A stretch of DNA of 59,251 bases, the filler included, from Sphacelaria rigidula (taxonomy: Eukaryota): assembly GCA_964200075.2 (NCBI GenBank). It is 9 parts of 9 records of this genome, joined end to end, with 100 filler letters (N's around TTAATTAATTAA, not from the genome) between each part and the next. Parts side by side here need not be neighbours in the genome. Positions count along the whole stretch, not along the records: positions 52,758 to 59,251 come from CAXNAA020019748.1; 8 more parts are not named here. One strand, 5' to 3'. Shown one piece after another: positions 22,538 through 59,251 of the stretch. The position numbers and the translations under genes were made by a program. Numbering within the stretch: position 1 is the first letter of the stretch; every line of letters starts with the position of its first letter. The notes beneath the pieces were generated by a model, which was not told where the DNA came from, made no database searches, and saw only the letters and a list, made by a program, of their open reading frames with translations.

Positions 22538-25500
22538 TTACCGCATTGGTCGCAACATGTCAACTCTACAGGATACCACCGGGCTCAGCAAAATCTCTCG
22601 GTTAGCCTCCAGCAACCGACGCACAATCTCATTCCTCTCTCGGATGCCAACGTTGGTCGGCTCTACATTGCCGACCATCCCTCGACAGCTCCCCGACACA
22701 TCGTTGTCACCATGATAGTCATTCTCCGGGCCACGAGAAGCACATCCATCCCTGCCGCTACGACTGCTATTGGAAGACGTGTCGTTAGGATATCCCATGA
22801 ACTTCACTCGTCGCTCTTGCCGCAAAATCGCCTGCGCTCCTTGAAGATCCTCGGGCGTCTCGTGCTTCAAAGTGTCCATCGATTTGGCGTCTGGAGTCAC
22901 CACTACCGGGGGAGGAACATTGGTTATCCGTGTCCCCAGAGGGGTACGTTCGTGACGGCGATCACGCCGTGCGGGCGTCGAACTCTCCCCGTCGACAAAC
23001 GCACAGGTAATATCGTTTTTTGCTAAATGATATTTCGCGCTGCTGTGGGGTACGGCGGATGAGGACGATCGTTGCTGTTGCAAACGCCTCAGGGTTACGA
23101 ATCTACGGTTTTTCTCCGCCTCTACAGCTGCCGCGCGATGGGCACGTTCGGATTTCTCGGACCTCGCGCGCCGTTCACAGGGTTCCGCGGCGGCCCACTC
23201 GACAAACCGGCGCACGGCGAGCACGTAGGGTCTGAGAGCCTTCGCGCGTGAGCAGATATTTCCGTCGCTATTTCCGTGACACTCCCGCCGGGAAAAACAG
23301 TGGCGAGTCAAGCGCAACACGGTTCCGTCCGGCAGGACACAGTCAACGAGATCGTTCCCTACTCGCTCAGACAACCTCCGTCCACCAATGCAGGAATTAC
23401 ACCCGCTGCCGACCACCCCCACCGTGGCCACTCGAGCACCACCGGCATTTGAGACACGAGCACATTCTGTTCCCGGCCACGACCATTTCCCCGCGCCATC
23501 GGGTAGGGAGCAGTCAGATGGGGCAGGGAGACGGACGATAGTTCGGTCCGCGAACACCCCGCGCGACCGACCGTCGGCGAACAACACGAACGACGCGCCG
23601 GAGCGCTCCACCCGTTCGACTACCTTGGTCGAATCGGGGAGATTTTTGCACGTCGAGGGTACCGGCTCACTTCGATAGCTCTCACAGTTATGATGGTGGT
23701 AGTGACGGTTCCCCGTGATGGCCTCGGAAAGTGCTTCATTTCTGCAAGAACAGGCCGTGGGCATGAGAAGTGGAACGAACAATATTTGGGGGTCCGCAGT
23801 CATCGTGGTCGTCATCGCGCGCTCAACGGCGGAACCGAGCATCAGGACATGTTCCATCCCGCCGAATGCGACATGAGCACCAGCATCACGACCTCCCGCA
23901 CGGAGACGACCAGAACCAACACCACCCGCTATACTCCTAGCACAACCAACTCCACCGCCATACCCCATTCTAGGGCAACTCGTGGCGGCGGGTATCCCAC
24001 TCGGAACTGTCCGGTTCTCCCCGGATCTTCGACATGTTGTCCAAGAAACGAATTGCTGCCGAAAAGCCTGCGCGCGGGCCGTGATTTCCCCCACGGAAAT
24101 CCCCCCCCCTCGGTGTCCCGTGGCAACAGTGGAATGCAGCGCTGGTGCGCGCGGACTGGAAAGGTCTCTACCGGAGCTGTCTGCCGTGTGATGAGATCGT
24201 GCCGCGGTTGGGGCACTTGTATTGGCACCGGCGGGGGTACCGGCGTTGCGTTCATTGGGCGTTCGCCGCCCAGTAGCGTTCGCAGTTGAAGCTGGTGGCA
24301 GGGGCGGGGGCGGGGGCGAAGCGACCCCGACAATGTCCAAGCGAACGGTTGACGTGGCGGAAACATGAAGAATACGGGACCTGAGTCGAGGATTAGTCCG
24401 GGATGCGGGGCGCAGAATTCGGATGAACTCGCCCTCCAGTAGTACCTCGGATCCGTCTGCGTGAATGACCACCTTCAAGCAGGAGGGAACGATAGGGTGG
24501 AATTGAAGAAGAGAAGGAGCGCACGTAGGAGGGGGGTTACTCATGTTTTTCATGCGCCAGAGTATAGTTGATGATTGGCGCGCGCGCGGGGGGGCGGGGA
24601 GGGTGCACTCATGATTATGCATGCCAGTCATATGACCAATGACCTCGCATCCCCGTAAAGCCGGGATGTAGCACGCCGGGTTTTCGCCGGACCAGGCTCG
24701 CACTCAATCACCAAGCGCAACGCGCTGTGATGTGTTCGGCGAGTCGCATGAAGGGCGAGCTGCATCCTGCTGAGATTGATCGGTCCGAAGCGTACTGTGT
24801 ATTTGGATGATAGCCTCCGATGAGTTGCTTCATTTTCTGGCATCGTCACTTCCAGGGACAGCCACGGCTAGTACATTGCCTCATGGGTGTCTTACCACTT
24901 GAACACTACGTGGTACGGTCATCTCCTTCGCGCGGAGTTGAGGTTCTCCCACCGCACACAATATGATCTAGTGGGGGGCGGGGGGACTCGAGCCTCTTCT
25001 GGAGCTTGGCAGTCACTCTTGAAATGTCGCTGCATGCAGGAAAAATAATTTAAATGCTTTTGGGCACGACAACGCACAAGGCCACGAGCTCCTTTGATTA
25101 TGACTTACATGTAATCCAACACGCCCTTTCCCCCATCGTACAAACACTTGTTAGCTGTTGCTGTTAAGATTATCTATCCCGCATTCTCGAGAGGTCCAGA
25201 CGCGCGTGGAAGGGGGCACAGAGAGTAATAAATTGCGCTAATTTCTTCACATGCACTCCGGAGGTATAAGCGTGACATATATGGGAACGTGAACAGATAA
25301 AAGGGCCTTGCCGTCATAACAAACAGCTGTACGTTGTAAGAAAAGACCCTAATGACCACTATGTTACCGTGGGCAGCTGAAGGTCATCTCCATGGGTGTA
25401 AGGGAAGTTTTTTTAAAATCTCGATTTTTGCCCAACCGCGGCGATCGTGACGATCACCCGAACGTCATCGAATTAAAAAAAACTCGTCGACATCTTCCTC

Positions 25501-52600: not shown

Positions 52601-55084
52601 CAGCCCAAGACTATCAGTTCTCTCTGCTTACGATGCGACTGGATAATAACTTCAGCANNNNNNNNNNNNNNNNNNNNNNNNNNNNNNNNNNNNNNNNNNN
52701 NTTAATTAATTAANNNNNNNNNNNNNNNNNNNNNNNNNNNNNNNNNNNNNNNNNNNNGGGGGCAGTGGCCGATCGTCATCGACGGGATGTGTTTAGGCGC
52801 ATTTTTTTCAGACCTTTCGTACAAAACGTAGCAGATTTCAACGCCACAGTTCTGAAGTAACATGCAGTCGGACTTACATTGTGCAGTTTGTCGACATAAT
52901 CGACAGCTCGGCTGTCGCCATTTATCATGCCGATTCTTATGACAGGCAAGAATAACCTGACACGAACTTTGATGTGGTCCAGATGCGTCGGGTTACGGCC
53001 CAAACGCAGACACCTCCGAATGTCGTGCTTCAGCTGTTAAGATGATTGCAGGACATCTTCGCGTTTTTCTGGTGGCCATTTTTAATTTTGGCCGAACGAA
53101 CACCTTCGTACGCGATTGTTGACACCTGCGATTGTATTGCTGCACTCGTTGAGACGGTTCAAAAACGCCTTTGCGTGTTTTCCGGTGGCCGCAGGTGATT
53201 TTTGCAACAATTTCATTTTTTCCCAAGAACGGTTGGTCTGTTGGATAAAACACGGGACCTTTTGTTTCCCGGCTGACCGTGCTCGGACAAACAAACGAGC
53301 CTGGCAATTGTTCTACCTCTGTCCGCCTTCAAACGCAAAGTGTCTTGGGATCGTCCGAGCGAATACGGAAAGACATGTGAAGGACCAGAAAGACGACTTT
53401 ATAGATTTATGTTGTTGTTGACCAGCATCAGCTGTGTCAGAGAGGAAATTTTTTCGAATAAAAAGTCTGTAACATCGGAGAATAACAACCGCGTCAACCG
53501 TTGCTGCTGCCTGCGTGCCTTCGAACAGCTTTAAACGATGTCGGCGAGACTCTTTCCCCCCGCAAAACGTACGACAAGCTTTACATGTTAGTTGGGATCA
53601 TAACCTCGGTCCAGGAGAGGACGGGGAGCGATGCCATCACGGGGGAACAAATAGCAAAGGAGTTCACGAACGTGAGTAGTGTAATGTGAAATACGAGGTA
53701 CTACAAAACCGGGTCTGCATTACACGGGGACGATAGTTGGTATTGGGTCATGTTTAAAGTCGTGTTGTACCATATGTGCGCCGCGGGTCATGTACGTTAC
53801 ATCTCGGAACCGAGTCAAGTCCGCTTGTATTGTTGTAAATTAGTTGCCGGACGTTTTACGACGCGTGTACTGCGTCTCCCACCCGCTCGTACGCCGAGAA
53901 ACAATCCAGGGAGATGTGAACGACGCATCCGTTGGGGAGGCCGGCGGCGAGGGTGAGGAGGGCCGGGACCGCCCAGCAGCGGGTAGTCGCGAGGGTAAAG
54001 TGTGCGAGTCGTGCAACCCCCCACCCTACACGTCAGGTGAGAGTGAAATTAGCGCACATAGAGTATCTAGTCGCAGGGCGGGCACCGAGATACACACCCA
54101 TCGACGAAAGCATTGCTCGCGAGACTGTCGATCGATTCGCCGCCGACATACATTCCTCTGTCCCCATTCCCGCAGGTACCGATGCACGCACTGCAGGGTT
54201 GCACACCATACGCTCTGCGACCTGCTCGTCCCTATCTCAGAAGATGCGACTCTGGCCGAGCGAAAAAAGCGCCTTTGCATATATCGTGCGAGGGCGAGCC
54301 CGAGCGCCGGAAGAGGAAAGAATCTCAGGATCCAGCCGGAGGCGGCGTCACATCAAATAGCGGGAAGAAAGCGAGGAAGGCAAGCGTTCCCCGACCGACC
54401 GCTGGCGCCATCATGGAAGAGCAAAGGTGCGAAGATCGAAGATCCAGCCGAGCGTTCCCCCGTGTGAAAACAGTCGCCGGTGAATTTCATCTTTTCGACG
54501 CGTGTCTCTCAGCGAGTGTCCTTGGCCACATAACCCTTACTTCCTCGCGGATACACCAACGATAGAAATTACCGATCGGTTGGCAACTATGGCTGTGTCG
54601 CGTTCATACTCTCGGAGTACACCGTGAGAGTGTTCCTACGTCAGGGTGGGGGAGGGGAGGGGCGTGGCGGCGTAAGGCATCACCGTAGGTCTTGATCAGA
54701 CCACAACACTCGATACATATTGTTGTCTTCTATACTGTGTTTTTTTGTCACCGCTCTTATAATACTTGCGGTTTTGTTTGTGCCACGATTCGTCGAATTT
54801 GACAATGTGCCGATGTAGACCCCCCCCCGCCCCTCCCCAAGAGTTGCGCTCGTAACAAAAACACAACACAGGGTAACGCAATGAGACCATACATGAAAGG
54901 GAGTCAGCGTTAACTGCAGGCTAATAAAAATGAAAGCGGAAGTACGTAATGATGCCCCGTCGGGTAGGGTGCGTGTTCCGACGGTGCGTTGGTTGTCCGC
55001 CTCAGGATCGCACTTCACCCGCGTTCTTCCGTCGGGTATCGATATGTACCGTGTGGAATGAATGACCTTTGTTTTTTCGCACAG

Positions 55085-55290
55085 GCGCAAGAATTCTACC
55101 ATGCACGCGGTAAACCTACTTCGTAGAGGGTGTGAGCTCATCGATGGAGGCGACCCCCTGTCTGTGGCACGCCAGCCAAAGCTCATCCTCGTCTCCTTGG
55201 ATGCCGAGAAAAGCATTCTGACACTAACAGACGACCACGTGAAAAGGTACTTCAAGCGGTTCGTGGGCAAACTGCTGAGCGCCTTGCGTC
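55085..55290 (+). pseudogene. Candidate upstream exon (N-terminal header domain?) of the CR-type pseudogene
   Basis: Acceptor ttttttcgcacag| followed by protein-like RKNSTMHAVNLLRRGCELIDGGDPLSVARQPKLILVSLDAEKSILTLTDDHVKR. Linkage to the downstream exon is not demonstrated. Confidence 0.35.
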
Positions 55291-56201
55291 TTTTGGGGAC
55301 GATCGCATTTGCCGTGCCGCGGCCGTGGTTCCCGCATGGAAATCGAATCAGAGATACCACCCCACACGCAATACATAGAGGGGGAAATGCGGGATTTAAA
55401 TGAAGGTGGTATGGCATCGTTTGGTACCTAGAATTATAGCGAGAAAACGACCGCTATGCTCGGAAATAGATGGTGGCCACAGAAGGTGAAGCAGGAAGGG
55501 GATAAGATGTGTAAAGAACTTTGTGTCATGTATGCAAGAAGCGTCATGAGTGCCCGAATGTTGGAGCTATTCATTAGTTGTAGGAATGGTGCTCGGGCTA
55601 AGTGTCGCGCGGTCAATGGTCAAATGGCGAAGGCAAGCAAAAAACGAGTAGCCCCCCCCCCACCCCCCACCCCCCCGCCCGACCGCCCCACCCCGCCCCG
55701 GCCGTCGCTGTCGCCGGCCCGTCTGCACCACGTCACAGACGCCATCACTCAAGACCAAACCATGGCGCTCGGAGAAGATCCTGTCCTCATCGAATATTCA
55801 CCCCCCGTGGGGGCTCTTGGAAAAGAGAAGAGAAATACGTGTCGCAGACGCTCTCTCCCCCTGAGTTTCGTGTGTTTTTAACCTTACCGAACTTGCTTGG
55901 TGGTGGGTTTGGCCTATTTCACCATGGCCTGCGTTCGGACCTCGGATACGCTGCCCATCTTTCACGCTCATCATTCGTTTGTTGACCCGCAACATGACCG
56001 TGTGTTTGTTCATCATATCTCGTGCCTTTGGCGAAGCAGGGCCAATTGTGCTATTTGCTTGATGCAATGCCCGTCGTTTCATTATTGCTCCCTTGTGCGA
56101 TTGCTGTAATCGGCTTCGCCGGCACAATGGTGTTGCTCATCCACGGTATCTGACGCCTTCCTATTCCGCCGTCGTCCGCTTTGATCCTGTGCCCGTTGTA
56201 G

Positions 56202-57584
56202 CCGACAACAACGTCACAGATTTTGCGGCCACACTCACCGAAGCCGTGGTAAACAACAACACCCTGGAACTGGTAAACGACACCCTGGGTGATCCGATGC
56301 TCGGATCCAAGCTGGTTATCCGCCCTTGTTACAAGGAATTATCCGAGATTATCTTGGACGGTGCTAGGCTTGTACCTGCTGTACCTGCTTCGATGCCAAG
56401 GGAGAACGGTTGTGTTCGAACGGAAGGGCTTCTGGTACCGTTTTAGTGATGAAGGAGTGGCCGAGGGAGAGTTTTCTAGTTCCAAGACGGCGGGGTATTT
56501 GACAGGAGACCCAACGGCTTGGTATTTGAGTGACCCGAAGGACCGGCCGGAAGAGATGTTCAGGGGTACAACGGTTGTGTTGGTGTCGCCCAAGGCGATC
56601 AGGGTCAACGAGTTCATGATACAGGTCAAATCCATTCGGCTTTTCATGGGAGTGTGAGGCCTGGGTGAGCTGTTGGAATGTCAGCGAGCTATTTTTCCTC
56701 GTGCACGATGTTCCGACGTGCAGGATGCTTTTCGTGATGTGGGAGGTGTGGCTAGAGCAGAGCCAGCTCAAACTTCTGAAAGGAAAAATGGTGATAGCGG
56801 CAGAAAGCTAAGTTTGGATCGGCTACGAGACGCAGTTCAGCCTGTTCAGACACCCTCCAGCACCGAAGGCCTTGGTGACGTGCTCTTTCATATCTTTCAG
56901 GACGATACAAACGGTTTCTGCGAATGCAAGGTCACCGTTGCCGGTGAATTCGCCGCAAAATCGATTTCTGAACAACTTTCCAAGAGGGGAACGACGGCGA
57001 TCGGAAATTAAATGGCGGTCCTTAGCGGGGACGAAAAACTTCGAACGGCGGTTGGACCAAATGTTTGGGCTTCTTTGTTTGAACAGTATGCTTGCTCACA
57101 GTGTCATCGCCGGCGAGCCGGGGGGCGGTGGACGAGAGTTTAAAGTGAATATCCCTACAGGTGGATTGGGGGAGGGCCGATTGAGCTTGAATGTCGATGG
57201 ACGACACGAGCAATTTATTGGGGAGACTTCTCCTATGACTTTCAACATTTCGACGTACTATGTGCCGAAAAGTCGGACTTTTCAATCGATCGATTCGTTC
57301 GGTGTGGACGGGCCGAACAAAACCATATATTTCTTCCAAATGAAGTCTGCAGACGTGAAGACTGTGGAAGGGGACAAAGTAGAGGAGTACTGGACCACTG
57401 CCTCCGAGTTGGAGATCGATAGGTGCGTGTTGGTGTATGTGGTTCCAGTCGGCGAAAGATGGGAACGGGCTAAAAAGAATTGCGAAGAGGTGATGGGCTT
57501 CCCGGAGCGAGCGATGTCTTCACGAGGACCTGTCGTGTATGCGTTATGGAGCTGTCGTTTGCTTCTGGCGGCAGTGTAGCGTAA
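56202..57584 (+). pseudogene. Crinkler/RHS-type (CR) P-loop NTPase + PD-(D/E)xK-like REase pseudogene
   Basis: Stitched translation: KLVIRPCYKELSEII/[Walker A missing]/TVLGLYLLYLL..TVVFER..WYLSD..TVVLVSPK..FMGV*..ELL..VGGVAR..LFHI..SLFEQYA/HSVIAG..YYVPKSRTFQSIDSF..IYFFQMK..VLVYVVP../VCVMEL. Stops at 56655-56657 and 57009-57011, plus several frameshifts. Confidence 0.85.
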
Positions 57585-59251
57585 CCTGGTACGCAAGAAA
57601 GTTCAAGATAGTGCTTTTACCATCCTCCACCATGCTTCCTACGATTTCAAGTTGGGAGTGGGTGTTTGTTCTAGGCAGCTCCGATAGCCGTAGTAGCGAC
57701 GACCGAATATTCGCCAACAACTAACTGCTTCGTTGTACATCATCACCCTCTGATTGAGGTCTTCCTCTATCTCAGGCTCTCACTCCAGGATTGGCAAAGC
57801 AATCTCTAGTTTCTGCTGTGTGTGCTACTTCGTTGCCCAAGGGAACTGCTCTGTTTGAACGCAAGAGCGTGTGGTGTGTCGATTAAGTGATGAAGGAAGG
57901 GTTGACGCAAGGAATTCAATTTAGACACGTTTGCAAGAGATGGGTTATATATCTGGATGATCACGTGACCAGCTGGCATAAGAGTGCAATGTCAGTCAAT
58001 GTAGAGTCAAAATGATGCCGATTCACAAAAACAAAACTCGTCAGGGGGTTCCAAAAGGATTAATAAGTATAGACATTGGATTATCCAGACCCGGGCGGGA
58101 AAAGAGGAAAATATCAACACCTTGACCCAACGTAAAAAAATTACGAAGCGTCCCTGGAAGCAAAGAGGTGTGCGGTAGTCCCACCGGCCCATTGTTTCAT
58201 CGATAGTTCATGTGCATTTATTTTTCCATCTTGCTAAAAGTGTCCCAAGACTCGAGAGATACAGGTCAAAGCCAAAGGCGGCAGTGCTGAACAAGCTGAT
58301 ATTATTGCTGCACCGAAGTACGTCAAGTCTTCATGCAAAATCTGCTCTCTTCATACAGTTGCGGCCCGGAGATCAAATACGTCAAAATCGTGTCGAGGCT
58401 CAGTTTCTTATTTCATCACCGCCGTTGAGCATAGGTTACTATAGATTTTTTTTTCGCGCAGCGATAGTGGAGTTTTTTTTTTTCAAAAAAACTATTTCTC
58501 CTGGTTCCTGCCTGTGTGTGCGCACCTTAGATAACACCCCTCTGCTGACCGAGGCCTGGATTAATTACTGATCTTATTTCCTTGTTTGTTCTTTCGTTTG
58601 TTCGTTCGTTCCGTGCCCTTTTAGCACACCTTTTCGCCGATTTAGAAACCGTTTGGGCACCGATTCCAGTGCAGAAAAGTGCACAACCTCCCCATTTTTT
58701 TGAGAAAGCCTGTGGGGTCTTTCGCTCTGCTAATCGAAGCCCGGTTCAGCTGTTGACAGTCGTTTTGTCCTCTCTTTGGAGGTAGCCTTGTGAGCCAGCC
58801 TGAACCATGCAACCGGGTACATCGCCACAACACACGCGATGATGCACACGACAGACACATGAAAGACCAGAGACAAGCTCCCACAGCAGGGGTAGAGCAG
58901 TGTCTGCTATGGTGACCACCTTTCAGCAGCACAGAAAGGCCCTTCAACCTCGTGTGTGGTGGTGTCCGCAAGGCAAAACGAACACAGACGGCGGTTTGGT
59001 TTTTGATTTTTCACCTCGGCACACACGAGGTACCAACTTTGATGCTCATGGTGGAGGCGTAAGGACGGAGCTTGTCCTGTACAGCTCCCGGCTTTCACTA
59101 TCTACATATAACAGCGAATTGTGCGAATTAAGGTTTAACTCCGAGATGAGGTTCAAGTGGGCAACCCGACTTGCGAACTGTTTGTAGTAGAAGTACCGAG
59201 GACAAGCTCTTATTCGGAAGAAGTAACCTGTGGAGGTGAACACGTAACACG

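What the first reader, a model, noticed from the sequence alone, without database searches (positions are those of the whole stretch)
56202..57584. Crinkler/RHS-type NTPase-endonuclease gene, pseudogenised, in an apparently algal genome
Seen: four ORF fragments in different frames join into one colinear protein with the motif order LxxRxCY, hydrophobic strand plus D (WYLSD, Walker B position), VxxSP, MxxW..EEL, GGxxR, LFE..AH, YxxP...FxxIDS, FQM and VYVVP. Established: this order is typical of the CR-NTPase + CR-REase architecture of oomycete/fungal Crinklers and trypanosome RHS proteins, which are linked to mobile-element origins and conflict roles. Inference: this is a dead member of a fast-turnover nuclease-effector or mobile family in a probably non-pathogenic stramenopile, so intact paralogs may form an uncharacterised defence or selfish system.
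Basis: partly seen in the sequence, partly recalled or inferred. Interest (0 to 1): 0.75.

Follow-up and report, generated by a model that had tools for sequence, protein, structure and literature searches.

The report
Dead Crinkler-type nuclease gene, brown alga
This is a broken copy of a seaweed gene from the Crinkler/RHS family of DNA-cutting conflict proteins; the copy itself is dead, but intact relatives in other brown algae carry what looks like a chloroplast address label, which has not been described for this family in the papers I could search.

Summary
Confirmed. Window 56202-57584 is the NTPase+REase exon of a Crinkler/RHS-type (CR) gene. It is dead: a 62-nt deletion removes Walker A, four more frameshifts and two nonsense codons follow, and a high-copy repeat sits where the upstream exon should be. 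Contigs from other samples show the same breaks. The genome is a fucoxanthin-containing alga. The window is a chain of unrelated contigs, so only 52758-59251 is real context. One other copy was found in this assembly, independently broken and split by a repeat; no intact paralog was found here. Intact relatives occur across brown algae and group with yellow-green algal proteins, apart from oomycete and fungal Crinklers, so this is not contamination. Best reading: a birth-and-death family of NTPase-gated DNA nucleases, possibly plastid-targeted; function untested. No sign of an autonomous mobile element.

The parts
52758..55836 (.). Truncated high-copy genomic repeat standing where the upstream (header) exon(s) would lie
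   Evidence: 58 matches on 40 scored contigs of 2938 candidates, mostly 81-93% identity; all 6 distinct other copies whose alignment reaches 55836 continue with a shared sequence that the window lacks. An X3 contig bridges the junction.
55837..56201 (+). 3' remnant of the intron: branch-point-like CTGAC at 56150, pyrimidine-rich tract, AG acceptor at 56200-56201
   Evidence: Sequence. A contig of run X15 (RNA by guess) matches from 56200 and has an unrelated 5' part of at least 255 nt, as expected of a spliced upstream exon.
56202..56366 (+). Segment 1: start of the NTPase exon with LVIRPCY; ends at the 62-nt deletion that removes the Walker A strand and loop
   Evidence: 78-89% identity to P0002 residues 12-113. 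Walker A is present in C7430 and in 27 of 27 aligned relatives. X5 contig 56292-56461 has 0 differences across the deletion.
56367..56760 (+). Segment 2: NTPase core (WYLSD Walker-B position, VLVSP, MGV-stop, GGVAR); nonsense TGA at 56655-56657
   Evidence: X5 contig 56563-56760 has 0 differences.
56761..56811 (+). Segment 3: short helical piece between an 11-nt and a 1-nt deletion
56812..57093 (+). Segment 4: helical linker and the first REase helix (LFEQ, candidate catalytic Glu at 57081); nonsense TAA at 57009-57011; 4-nt insertion near 57089
   Evidence: X3 contig 56852-57313 has 0 gaps and reads TGA, still a stop, at 57009.
57094..57472 (+). Segment 5: REase core (YYVP, IDS with Asp at 57292, FQMK with Gln 57337 and Lys 57343, VYVVP)
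   Evidence: The matching part of P0002 is nearest to oomycete, euglenozoan and RHSP-bearing clusters.
57473..57584 (+). Segment 6: C-terminal helix and strand, natural stop TAA 57582-57584
   Evidence: 83% identity to P0002 507-535
57585..57989 (+). 3' flank (putative 3' UTR) shared with the second copy and with the X15 contig
57990..58078 (.). Fragment of a high-copy repeat interrupting the 3' flank
   Evidence: The X15 contig skips 57989-58079; summed depth jumps to about 85,000 in X3

Best explanation
The stretch is the dead effector exon of a two-part brown-algal CR (Crinkler/RHS-type) gene. SHOWN: it encodes an AAA+/STAND-like P-loop NTPase, a helical linker and a C-terminal domain with restriction-endonuclease-type motifs (E...D...QxK); it carries seven disabling lesions and has lost contact with its upstream exon; the family groups with yellow-green algal proteins and has intact members in other brown algae; headers and effector exons are exchanged between members. 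INFERRED (about 0.75, from what is established for CR proteins): the intact protein is a DNA nuclease whose activity is gated by the NTPase, used in biological conflict, and copies are born, shuffled and lost quickly. INFERRED (about 0.55 for the family, about 0.45 for this copy's ancestor): a bipartite presequence plus coiled-coil header delivers it to the plastid. COMMITTED GUESS on role (about 0.4): a cell-autonomous defence or suicide nuclease that destroys invading or organellar DNA in a compromised cell. The confidence figure refers to the shown part plus the gated-nuclease inference.
Against: No nuclease or NTPase activity was tested. The REase fold is not confirmed against a solved structure: both fold searches were filled by the NTPase, the separate REase model was unusable (pLDDT 44.6), and a REase-only profile found nothing in the PDB. 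Pfam finds nothing relevant on the four window fragments. The presequence test is my own heuristic on hand-picked gene models; 8 of 17 fail it, four models start at a Met internal to the presequence (truncation or a cytosolic isoform), and the Tribonema case needs an internal Met. This copy's own header was not found, and X15 is RNA only by guess. The tree is the quick one, without bootstrap, and the window copy was not in it.
Confidence: 0.8

Rival explanations
1. Intact members are plastid-targeted nucleases acting in plastid-genome conflict: competition, sorting or elimination of one parent's plastid DNA after fertilisation.
For: Plastid-type presequences in about four header types, from Ectocarpales to Tribonema. 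Most named intact models come from Ectocarpales, which inherit plastids from both parents and have rearranged plastid genomes (PMC7005149, abstract). Copies here and one in Undaria are broken.
Against: Databases over-sample Ectocarpales. An intact-looking member exists in Ascophyllum (P0188; oogamy recalled), and a close relative of this copy appears expressed (X15). No gamete or zygote expression data were seen.
Confidence: 0.15
2. A selfish nuclear toxin of the Medea or gamete-killer type that spreads by killing non-carrier cells or offspring and then decays.
For: Medea1 has a CR-NTPase+CR-REase architecture (PMC11342252, passages). Repeated independent deaths and proximity to mobile DNA. 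The nuclease half differs more between the two copies than the NTPase half (about 12% vs 5%).
Against: No antidote gene seen on the contig; low copy number; family retained across brown and yellow-green algae; no segregation data.
Confidence: 0.15
3. A secreted effector aimed at other organisms (epiphytes, endophytes, competitors), with the N-terminal hydrophobic stretch acting as a plain signal peptide.
For: Strong hydrophobic N-termini (mean hydropathy 2.85-3.65). Oomycete Crinklers are secreted and translocated (PMC5289972, section 11).
Against: Phe right after the likely cleavage site followed by a Ser/Thr-rich, non-acidic stretch fits plastid import better. No ubiquitin-like LxLFLAK header in the brown-algal models scanned.
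Confidence: 0.15
4. The gene is the enzyme of an autonomous mobile element.
For: CR NTPase+REase modules are thought to derive from mobile elements. One Undaria model fuses a PIF1 helicase fragment to the exon.
Against: Two copies found in 244 Mb; spliced gene structure; no terminal repeats or target duplication around the gene. The neighbouring repeats are insertions into the gene.
Confidence: 0.06
5. The contig comes from an oomycete or fungal contaminant.
For: Homology to Phytophthora and Glomeromycota Crinklers.
Against: The contig shares a repeat with dozens of other contigs of the assembly. The assembly has 56 light-harvesting matches, one tested and of the fucoxanthin type. The nearest proteins are brown-algal at up to 81% identity, against about 25-30% for Crinklers.
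Confidence: 0.01

Closest known systems
CR (Crinkler-RHS) proteins with NTPase + HTH + REase C-termini (Zhang et al. 2016, seen only through PMC5289972 and PMC11342252)
   Same: Header + P-loop NTPase + helical linker + REase-type domain; profile homology over the whole module; exchange of headers and C-termini; occurrence in non-pathogens is already reported.
   Different: Header is a signal peptide + Phe + transit-like stretch + coiled coil, whereas the review says signal peptides were ruled out for CR headers, one Angomonas case aside. The brown-algal clade keeps Q-x-K (24 of 27) where the wider set has QMT...H. This copy is dead.
Oomycete and fungal Crinkler effectors (e.g. Phytophthora lilii GMF31914.1, Diversispora RHZ71427.1; Pfam PF20147)
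   Same: Homologous NTPase/REase body (E 6e-51 and 3.9e-47).
   Different: No ubiquitin-like LxLFLAK header in the brown-algal models scanned; separate clade; host is not a pathogen.
Trypanosome retrotransposon hot spot (RHS) proteins (Pfam PF07999)
   Same: P0007 passes the RHSP cut-off; an RHSP-bearing cluster is among the nearest to the C-terminal domain; many pseudogenes and insertions by mobile DNA.
   Different: Most members score below the cut-off; no subtelomeric arrays or fixed insertion site could be shown; copy number here is two.
Tribolium Medea1 and Wolbachia CifB REases
   Same: CR-type NTPase+REase modules acting as selfish killers.
   Different: The CR-REase7 hallmarks and any drive phenotype were not tested here.

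Membership tests
CR (Crinkler-RHS) NTPase+REase proteins | P-loop NTPase of the CR type | tested here: met
   Walker A in 27 of 27 relatives and in copy C7430; hhalign 99.9% to a Crinkler; STAND/AAA+ fold. Walker A is deleted in the window copy.
CR (Crinkler-RHS) NTPase+REase proteins | C-terminal REase-superfamily domain with catalytic residues | tested here: inconclusive
   E, D and QxK conserved, helix/strand order fits, nearest atlas clusters oomycete, euglenozoan and RHSP; no match to a solved REase structure was obtained.
CR (Crinkler-RHS) NTPase+REase proteins | Separate N-terminal header, exchangeable with the C-terminal module | tested here: met
   Reciprocal header/body identities 88/52 and 48/85 among relatives; exon boundary at 56201/56202. 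Met for relatives; the window copy's header is missing.
CR (Crinkler-RHS) NTPase+REase proteins | Assignment to a numbered CR-NTPase or CR-REase clade | not testable with these tools
   Zhang et al. 2016 and its profiles are not held.
CR (Crinkler-RHS) NTPase+REase proteins | Nuclease activity or toxicity | not testable with these tools
   Needs bench work on intact relatives.
Classical CRN effectors | Ubiquitin-like header with LxLFLAK (PF20147) | tested here: not met
   No PF20147 hit in the brown-algal full-length models scanned (P0027, P0034, P0045, P0038, P0025; P0051; P0206); controls P0043 and P0083 hit strongly.
Trypanosome RHS proteins | PF07999 above cut-off | tested here: inconclusive
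   1 of 17 above cut-off, several more weakly; none for the window fragments.
Plastid-targeted proteins of ochrophytes | Signal peptide, F/W/Y/L at +1, transit peptide rich in Ser/Thr, few acidic residues, net positive | tested here: inconclusive
   9 of 17 hand-picked proteins fit by my heuristic (criteria). SignalP, ASAFind and HECTAR were not available. The window copy has no header to test.
Autonomous DNA transposon | Terminal inverted repeats and target-site duplication around the gene; multiple copies | tested here: not met
   Only short chance-level repeats in 55800-59251; two copies found. The upstream flank is overwritten, so an old end could be lost.

The most novel reading that the evidence does not exclude
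Brown and yellow-green algae have turned the Crinkler/RHS toxin module into a family of nucleus-encoded, plastid-imported, NTPase-gated restriction-like nucleases whose targeting header and nuclease exon are shuffled between copies. They would form an organelle-directed conflict system (defence by destroying plastid DNA, or control of which plastid genome survives), and the window holds one of its discarded copies.
Probability: 0.3. Interest if true: 0.8.

Novelty: new variant of a known kind. Interest (0 to 1): 0.45.

Why it matters
The window copy is an ordinary pseudogene, and CR proteins in non-pathogens are known. What matters is the family it points to. I found no description of CR genes in brown algae in the library searched: the brown-algal genomics preprint 10.1101/2024.02.19.579948 has no occurrence of crinkler, CRN, RHS or endonuclease in its main text, and searches listed none. 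Zhang et al. 2016 could not be read and may list such proteins. If the presequences are real, this is a CR nuclease aimed at the cell's own plastid and not at a host nucleus. That would give testable candidates in Ectocarpus for two open questions: how brown algae kill infected cells, and how plastid genomes are sorted or eliminated after fertilisation.

Tried and rejected
Pfam on the four window fragments: nothing relevant. Search of the assembly with an Ectocarpus header: 0 matches; with P0219: one weak header-like exon on C11203 and no NTPase on that contig, so it cannot be linked to either copy. Metagenome scan for genomic context: 10 loci, all distant (26-40% identity), not examined further. 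Single-sequence fold of the window REase piece: pLDDT 44.6, discarded. PDB sequence searches with REase-only and wide profiles: no REase; only weak P-loop matches. Viral fold library: generic AAA+ matches only. Atlas search with the header: no usable hit. Pfam on ORFs of the upstream repeat and two other window ORFs: nothing. An ORF at the end of the upstream repeat (55762 onward) was considered as the first exon and rejected because it lies inside the repeat. Neighbouring 'genes' left of 52758 were rejected as context because of the linkers. Expression of the window copy itself: no RNA run held more than 0.14 of its words; the X18 RNA contigs are of relatives and one runs into the intron, so they show nothing about this copy. 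One X5 contig (56731-57087) has window-type gaps but second-copy-type letters and may be an assembly chimera; I did not rely on it. Supplements of the papers were not read and could list brown-algal CR genes.

Full report
Context. The window is not one piece of chromosome. Eight N44-TTAATTAATTAA-N44 linkers divide it into contigs of about 6.5 kb, and the finding lies in G000 contig C19748, window 52758-59251. The assembly has 244 Mb in 27,214 contigs. It holds 56 matches to the light-harvesting family PF00504; the one I tested is closest to fucoxanthin-chlorophyll a/c proteins. With the protein relatives below, this places the host among brown algae. C19748 shares a repeat with dozens of other contigs, so it belongs to this genome.

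The observation. The stretch scores 341 bits against the intact relative P0002, against at most 23.1 in 200 shuffles. There are six frame segments and seven disabling lesions: a 62-nt deletion at 56366/56367 that removes Walker A, nonsense codons at 56655 and 57009, deletions of 11, 1 and 1 nt near 56761, 56812 and 57472, and a 4-nt insertion near 57089. These are not assembly errors. Contigs of run X5 (another sample, same study as the best holder) cross the Walker A deletion, the first stop and the last frameshift with no difference. Contigs of run X3 (another study) cross the repeat junction at 55836, the Walker A deletion and the 4-nt insertion, and read a stop at 57009 (4 of 22 listed runs were laid). 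Position 56202 follows an AG acceptor. A contig from run X15 (RNA by guess, another organism) matches from 56200, continues upstream in unrelated sequence, contains the extra bases at Walker A, and shows gaps relative to the window; this fits a spliced transcript of a less damaged relative. In the window, a truncated high-copy repeat fills 52758-55836, where the upstream exon would be.

Other copies in this genome. Seven searches with the gene or its relatives returned the same three pieces: the window, C7430 (5' half, 93% identity, Walker A present) and C25379 (3' half, 87-88%). C7430 ends and C25379 begins in the same repeat of about 650 bp with TG...CA ends, with a 4-bp duplication at the two junctions. 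They are therefore most likely one gene split by an insertion. That copy has its own frameshifts and stop and a different repeat just upstream of Walker A. No lesion is shared between the two copies, so they died separately. Across 376 codons, dN/dS is 0.56 (Fisher p = 0.012), as expected if selection acted for part of the time since duplication. From the rows of that call, the NTPase half differs by about 5% with a ratio near 0.3, and the nuclease half by about 12% with a ratio near 0.8. No intact paralog was found, but counts from this search are lower bounds and the assembly may be incomplete.

The family. P0002 found 44 proteins; 40 have E below 1e-70, and all 12 named among those 40 are from Ectocarpus, Pylaiella or Laminaria. 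Cluster members add Undaria, Scytosiphon, Hapterophycus and Ascophyllum. In 27 aligned relatives Walker A, L.IR..Y, W[YF]L.D, GGVAR, YY and D[SG] are present in all 27; FE..AH, the SP motif and M..W...EL in 26; D...QxK in 24. The profile reaches 5187 proteins. Among the 10 looked up, the nearest outside brown algae are from Heterococcus and Tribonema, followed by Phytophthora, Diversispora and Volvox. Of 80 hits scanned (80 of the 150 listed), 8 carry the Crinkler header PF20147. The profile aligns to the Phytophthora protein at 99.9% over 308 columns, and one relative passes the RHS Pfam cut-off. In a quick tree of 53 proteins the brown-algal sequences form one clade (SH-aLRT 99), grouped with the Xanthophyceae and one long unnamed row (99), and apart from the Crinkler-domain proteins. 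This fits inheritance within the brown/yellow-green algal lineage; I did not run a clade test. The window copy was not in the tree. Its closest relatives by identity (P0001, P0002, P0003) sit with Undaria, and the Undaria model P0045 carries an out-of-frame stretch in place of GGVAR, so it too is damaged.

Headers. Full-length models have a coiled-coil header ahead of the same exon boundary. Headers and bodies do not travel together: P0206 and P0027 share 88% in the header and 52% in the body, while P0027 and P0034 share 48% and 85%. This is the modular exchange described for CR proteins (PMC5289972, passages and section 11). Unexpectedly, 9 of 17 hand-picked proteins begin with a hydrophobic stretch followed by Phe and 25 residues rich in Ser/Thr with at most two acidic residues. 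These are the features of a bipartite plastid presequence in PMC4329603 (passages). Three of the nine are header-only models and one (Tribonema) needs an internal Met; together they represent about four related header types, not nine independent cases. Of the eight that fail, several start inside the presequence or the coil and are probably truncated, though a cytosolic isoform is possible; two are chimeric Undaria models. Among 53 proteins with long N-termini, the five most hydrophobic starts all belong to the brown-algal clade. The review states that signal peptides were ruled out for CR headers apart from one Angomonas case. My test is a heuristic, and the window copy's own header is missing. 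The 30 letters seen upstream of the splice in X15 read as an Ala-rich stretch like the end of the P0034 header, which is the only link between this copy's lineage and a presequence-bearing header type.

How it most likely works. Shown: architecture, death of this copy, family range, header exchange. Inferred from CR biology: the REase cuts DNA and the NTPase gates or loads it. Inferred from sequence pattern: import into the plastid. My committed guess is a cell-autonomous defence or suicide nuclease (about 0.4). Rivals are plastid-genome conflict, Medea-like drive (PMC11342252, passages) and secretion against other organisms (about 0.15 each). An autonomous element is unlikely, and contamination is excluded.

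Literature seen. PMC5289972: passages and section 11. PMC11342252, PMC4329603, PMC6131194, PMC3174193, PMC5795050: passages. PMC7005149: abstract and outline. 10.1101/2024.02.19.579948: term counts in the main text only. Zhang et al. 2016: not held, known only second-hand. Searches listed no paper on CR genes in brown algae; no supplements were read.

Verdict. A real, dead member of a known protein kind, in a lineage where I found no description of it, with a header type that may be new. Interest 0.45; the plastid-nuclease reading has probability about 0.3 and would deserve 0.8.

Noticed in passing
window 6497-52757 (eight linkers): The window is an artificial chain of size-sorted contigs joined by N44-TTAATTAATTAA-N44, so apparent neighbourhoods across linkers are meaningless for other findings in this window.
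   Followed up: yes
window 57089-57097; G000 C7430:1-144 and C25379:5398-5673: Both dead copies were hit within a few bases of the same spot at the start of the nuclease domain: a 4-nt insertion in one, a TG...CA repeat of about 650 bp with a 4-bp duplication in the other. With two cases this may be chance, but it recalls the insertion hot spot of RHS genes (recalled).
   Followed up: partly
window 52758-55836; L054:2670-3305 (C6822): A large high-copy repeat (over 8 kb in other copies) of unknown class; one ORF in a fuller copy has a motif that I recall as ParB-like. No Pfam hit.
   Followed up: partly
L090 (G000 C11203:7769-7897, minus strand): A header-like coiled-coil exon between AG and GT, with no NTPase exon on the same contig; possibly an orphaned header.
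   Followed up: partly
L011:950-1060 (C7430): Part of a short repeat with hundreds of candidates in the genome, often in inverted pairs about 270 bp apart (MITE-like), lies just upstream of Walker A in the second copy.
   Followed up: partly
proteins P0255 and P0212: An Undaria model joins a PIF1 helicase fragment to the NTPase exon, and another model joins a header and the exon start to a copia-type gag; both are probably gene models running into mobile DNA. Helitron association is reported for Phytophthora Crinklers.
   Followed up: no
proteins P0105, P0122, P0137, P0148: Distant CR relatives, including one from Volvox, have N-termini that look by eye like organelle transit peptides; organelle targeting of CR proteins may be wider than brown algae.
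   Followed up: no
window 22541-24703 (minus strand): A 721-codon open frame on another contig of the window, without a Pfam hit.
   Followed up: no
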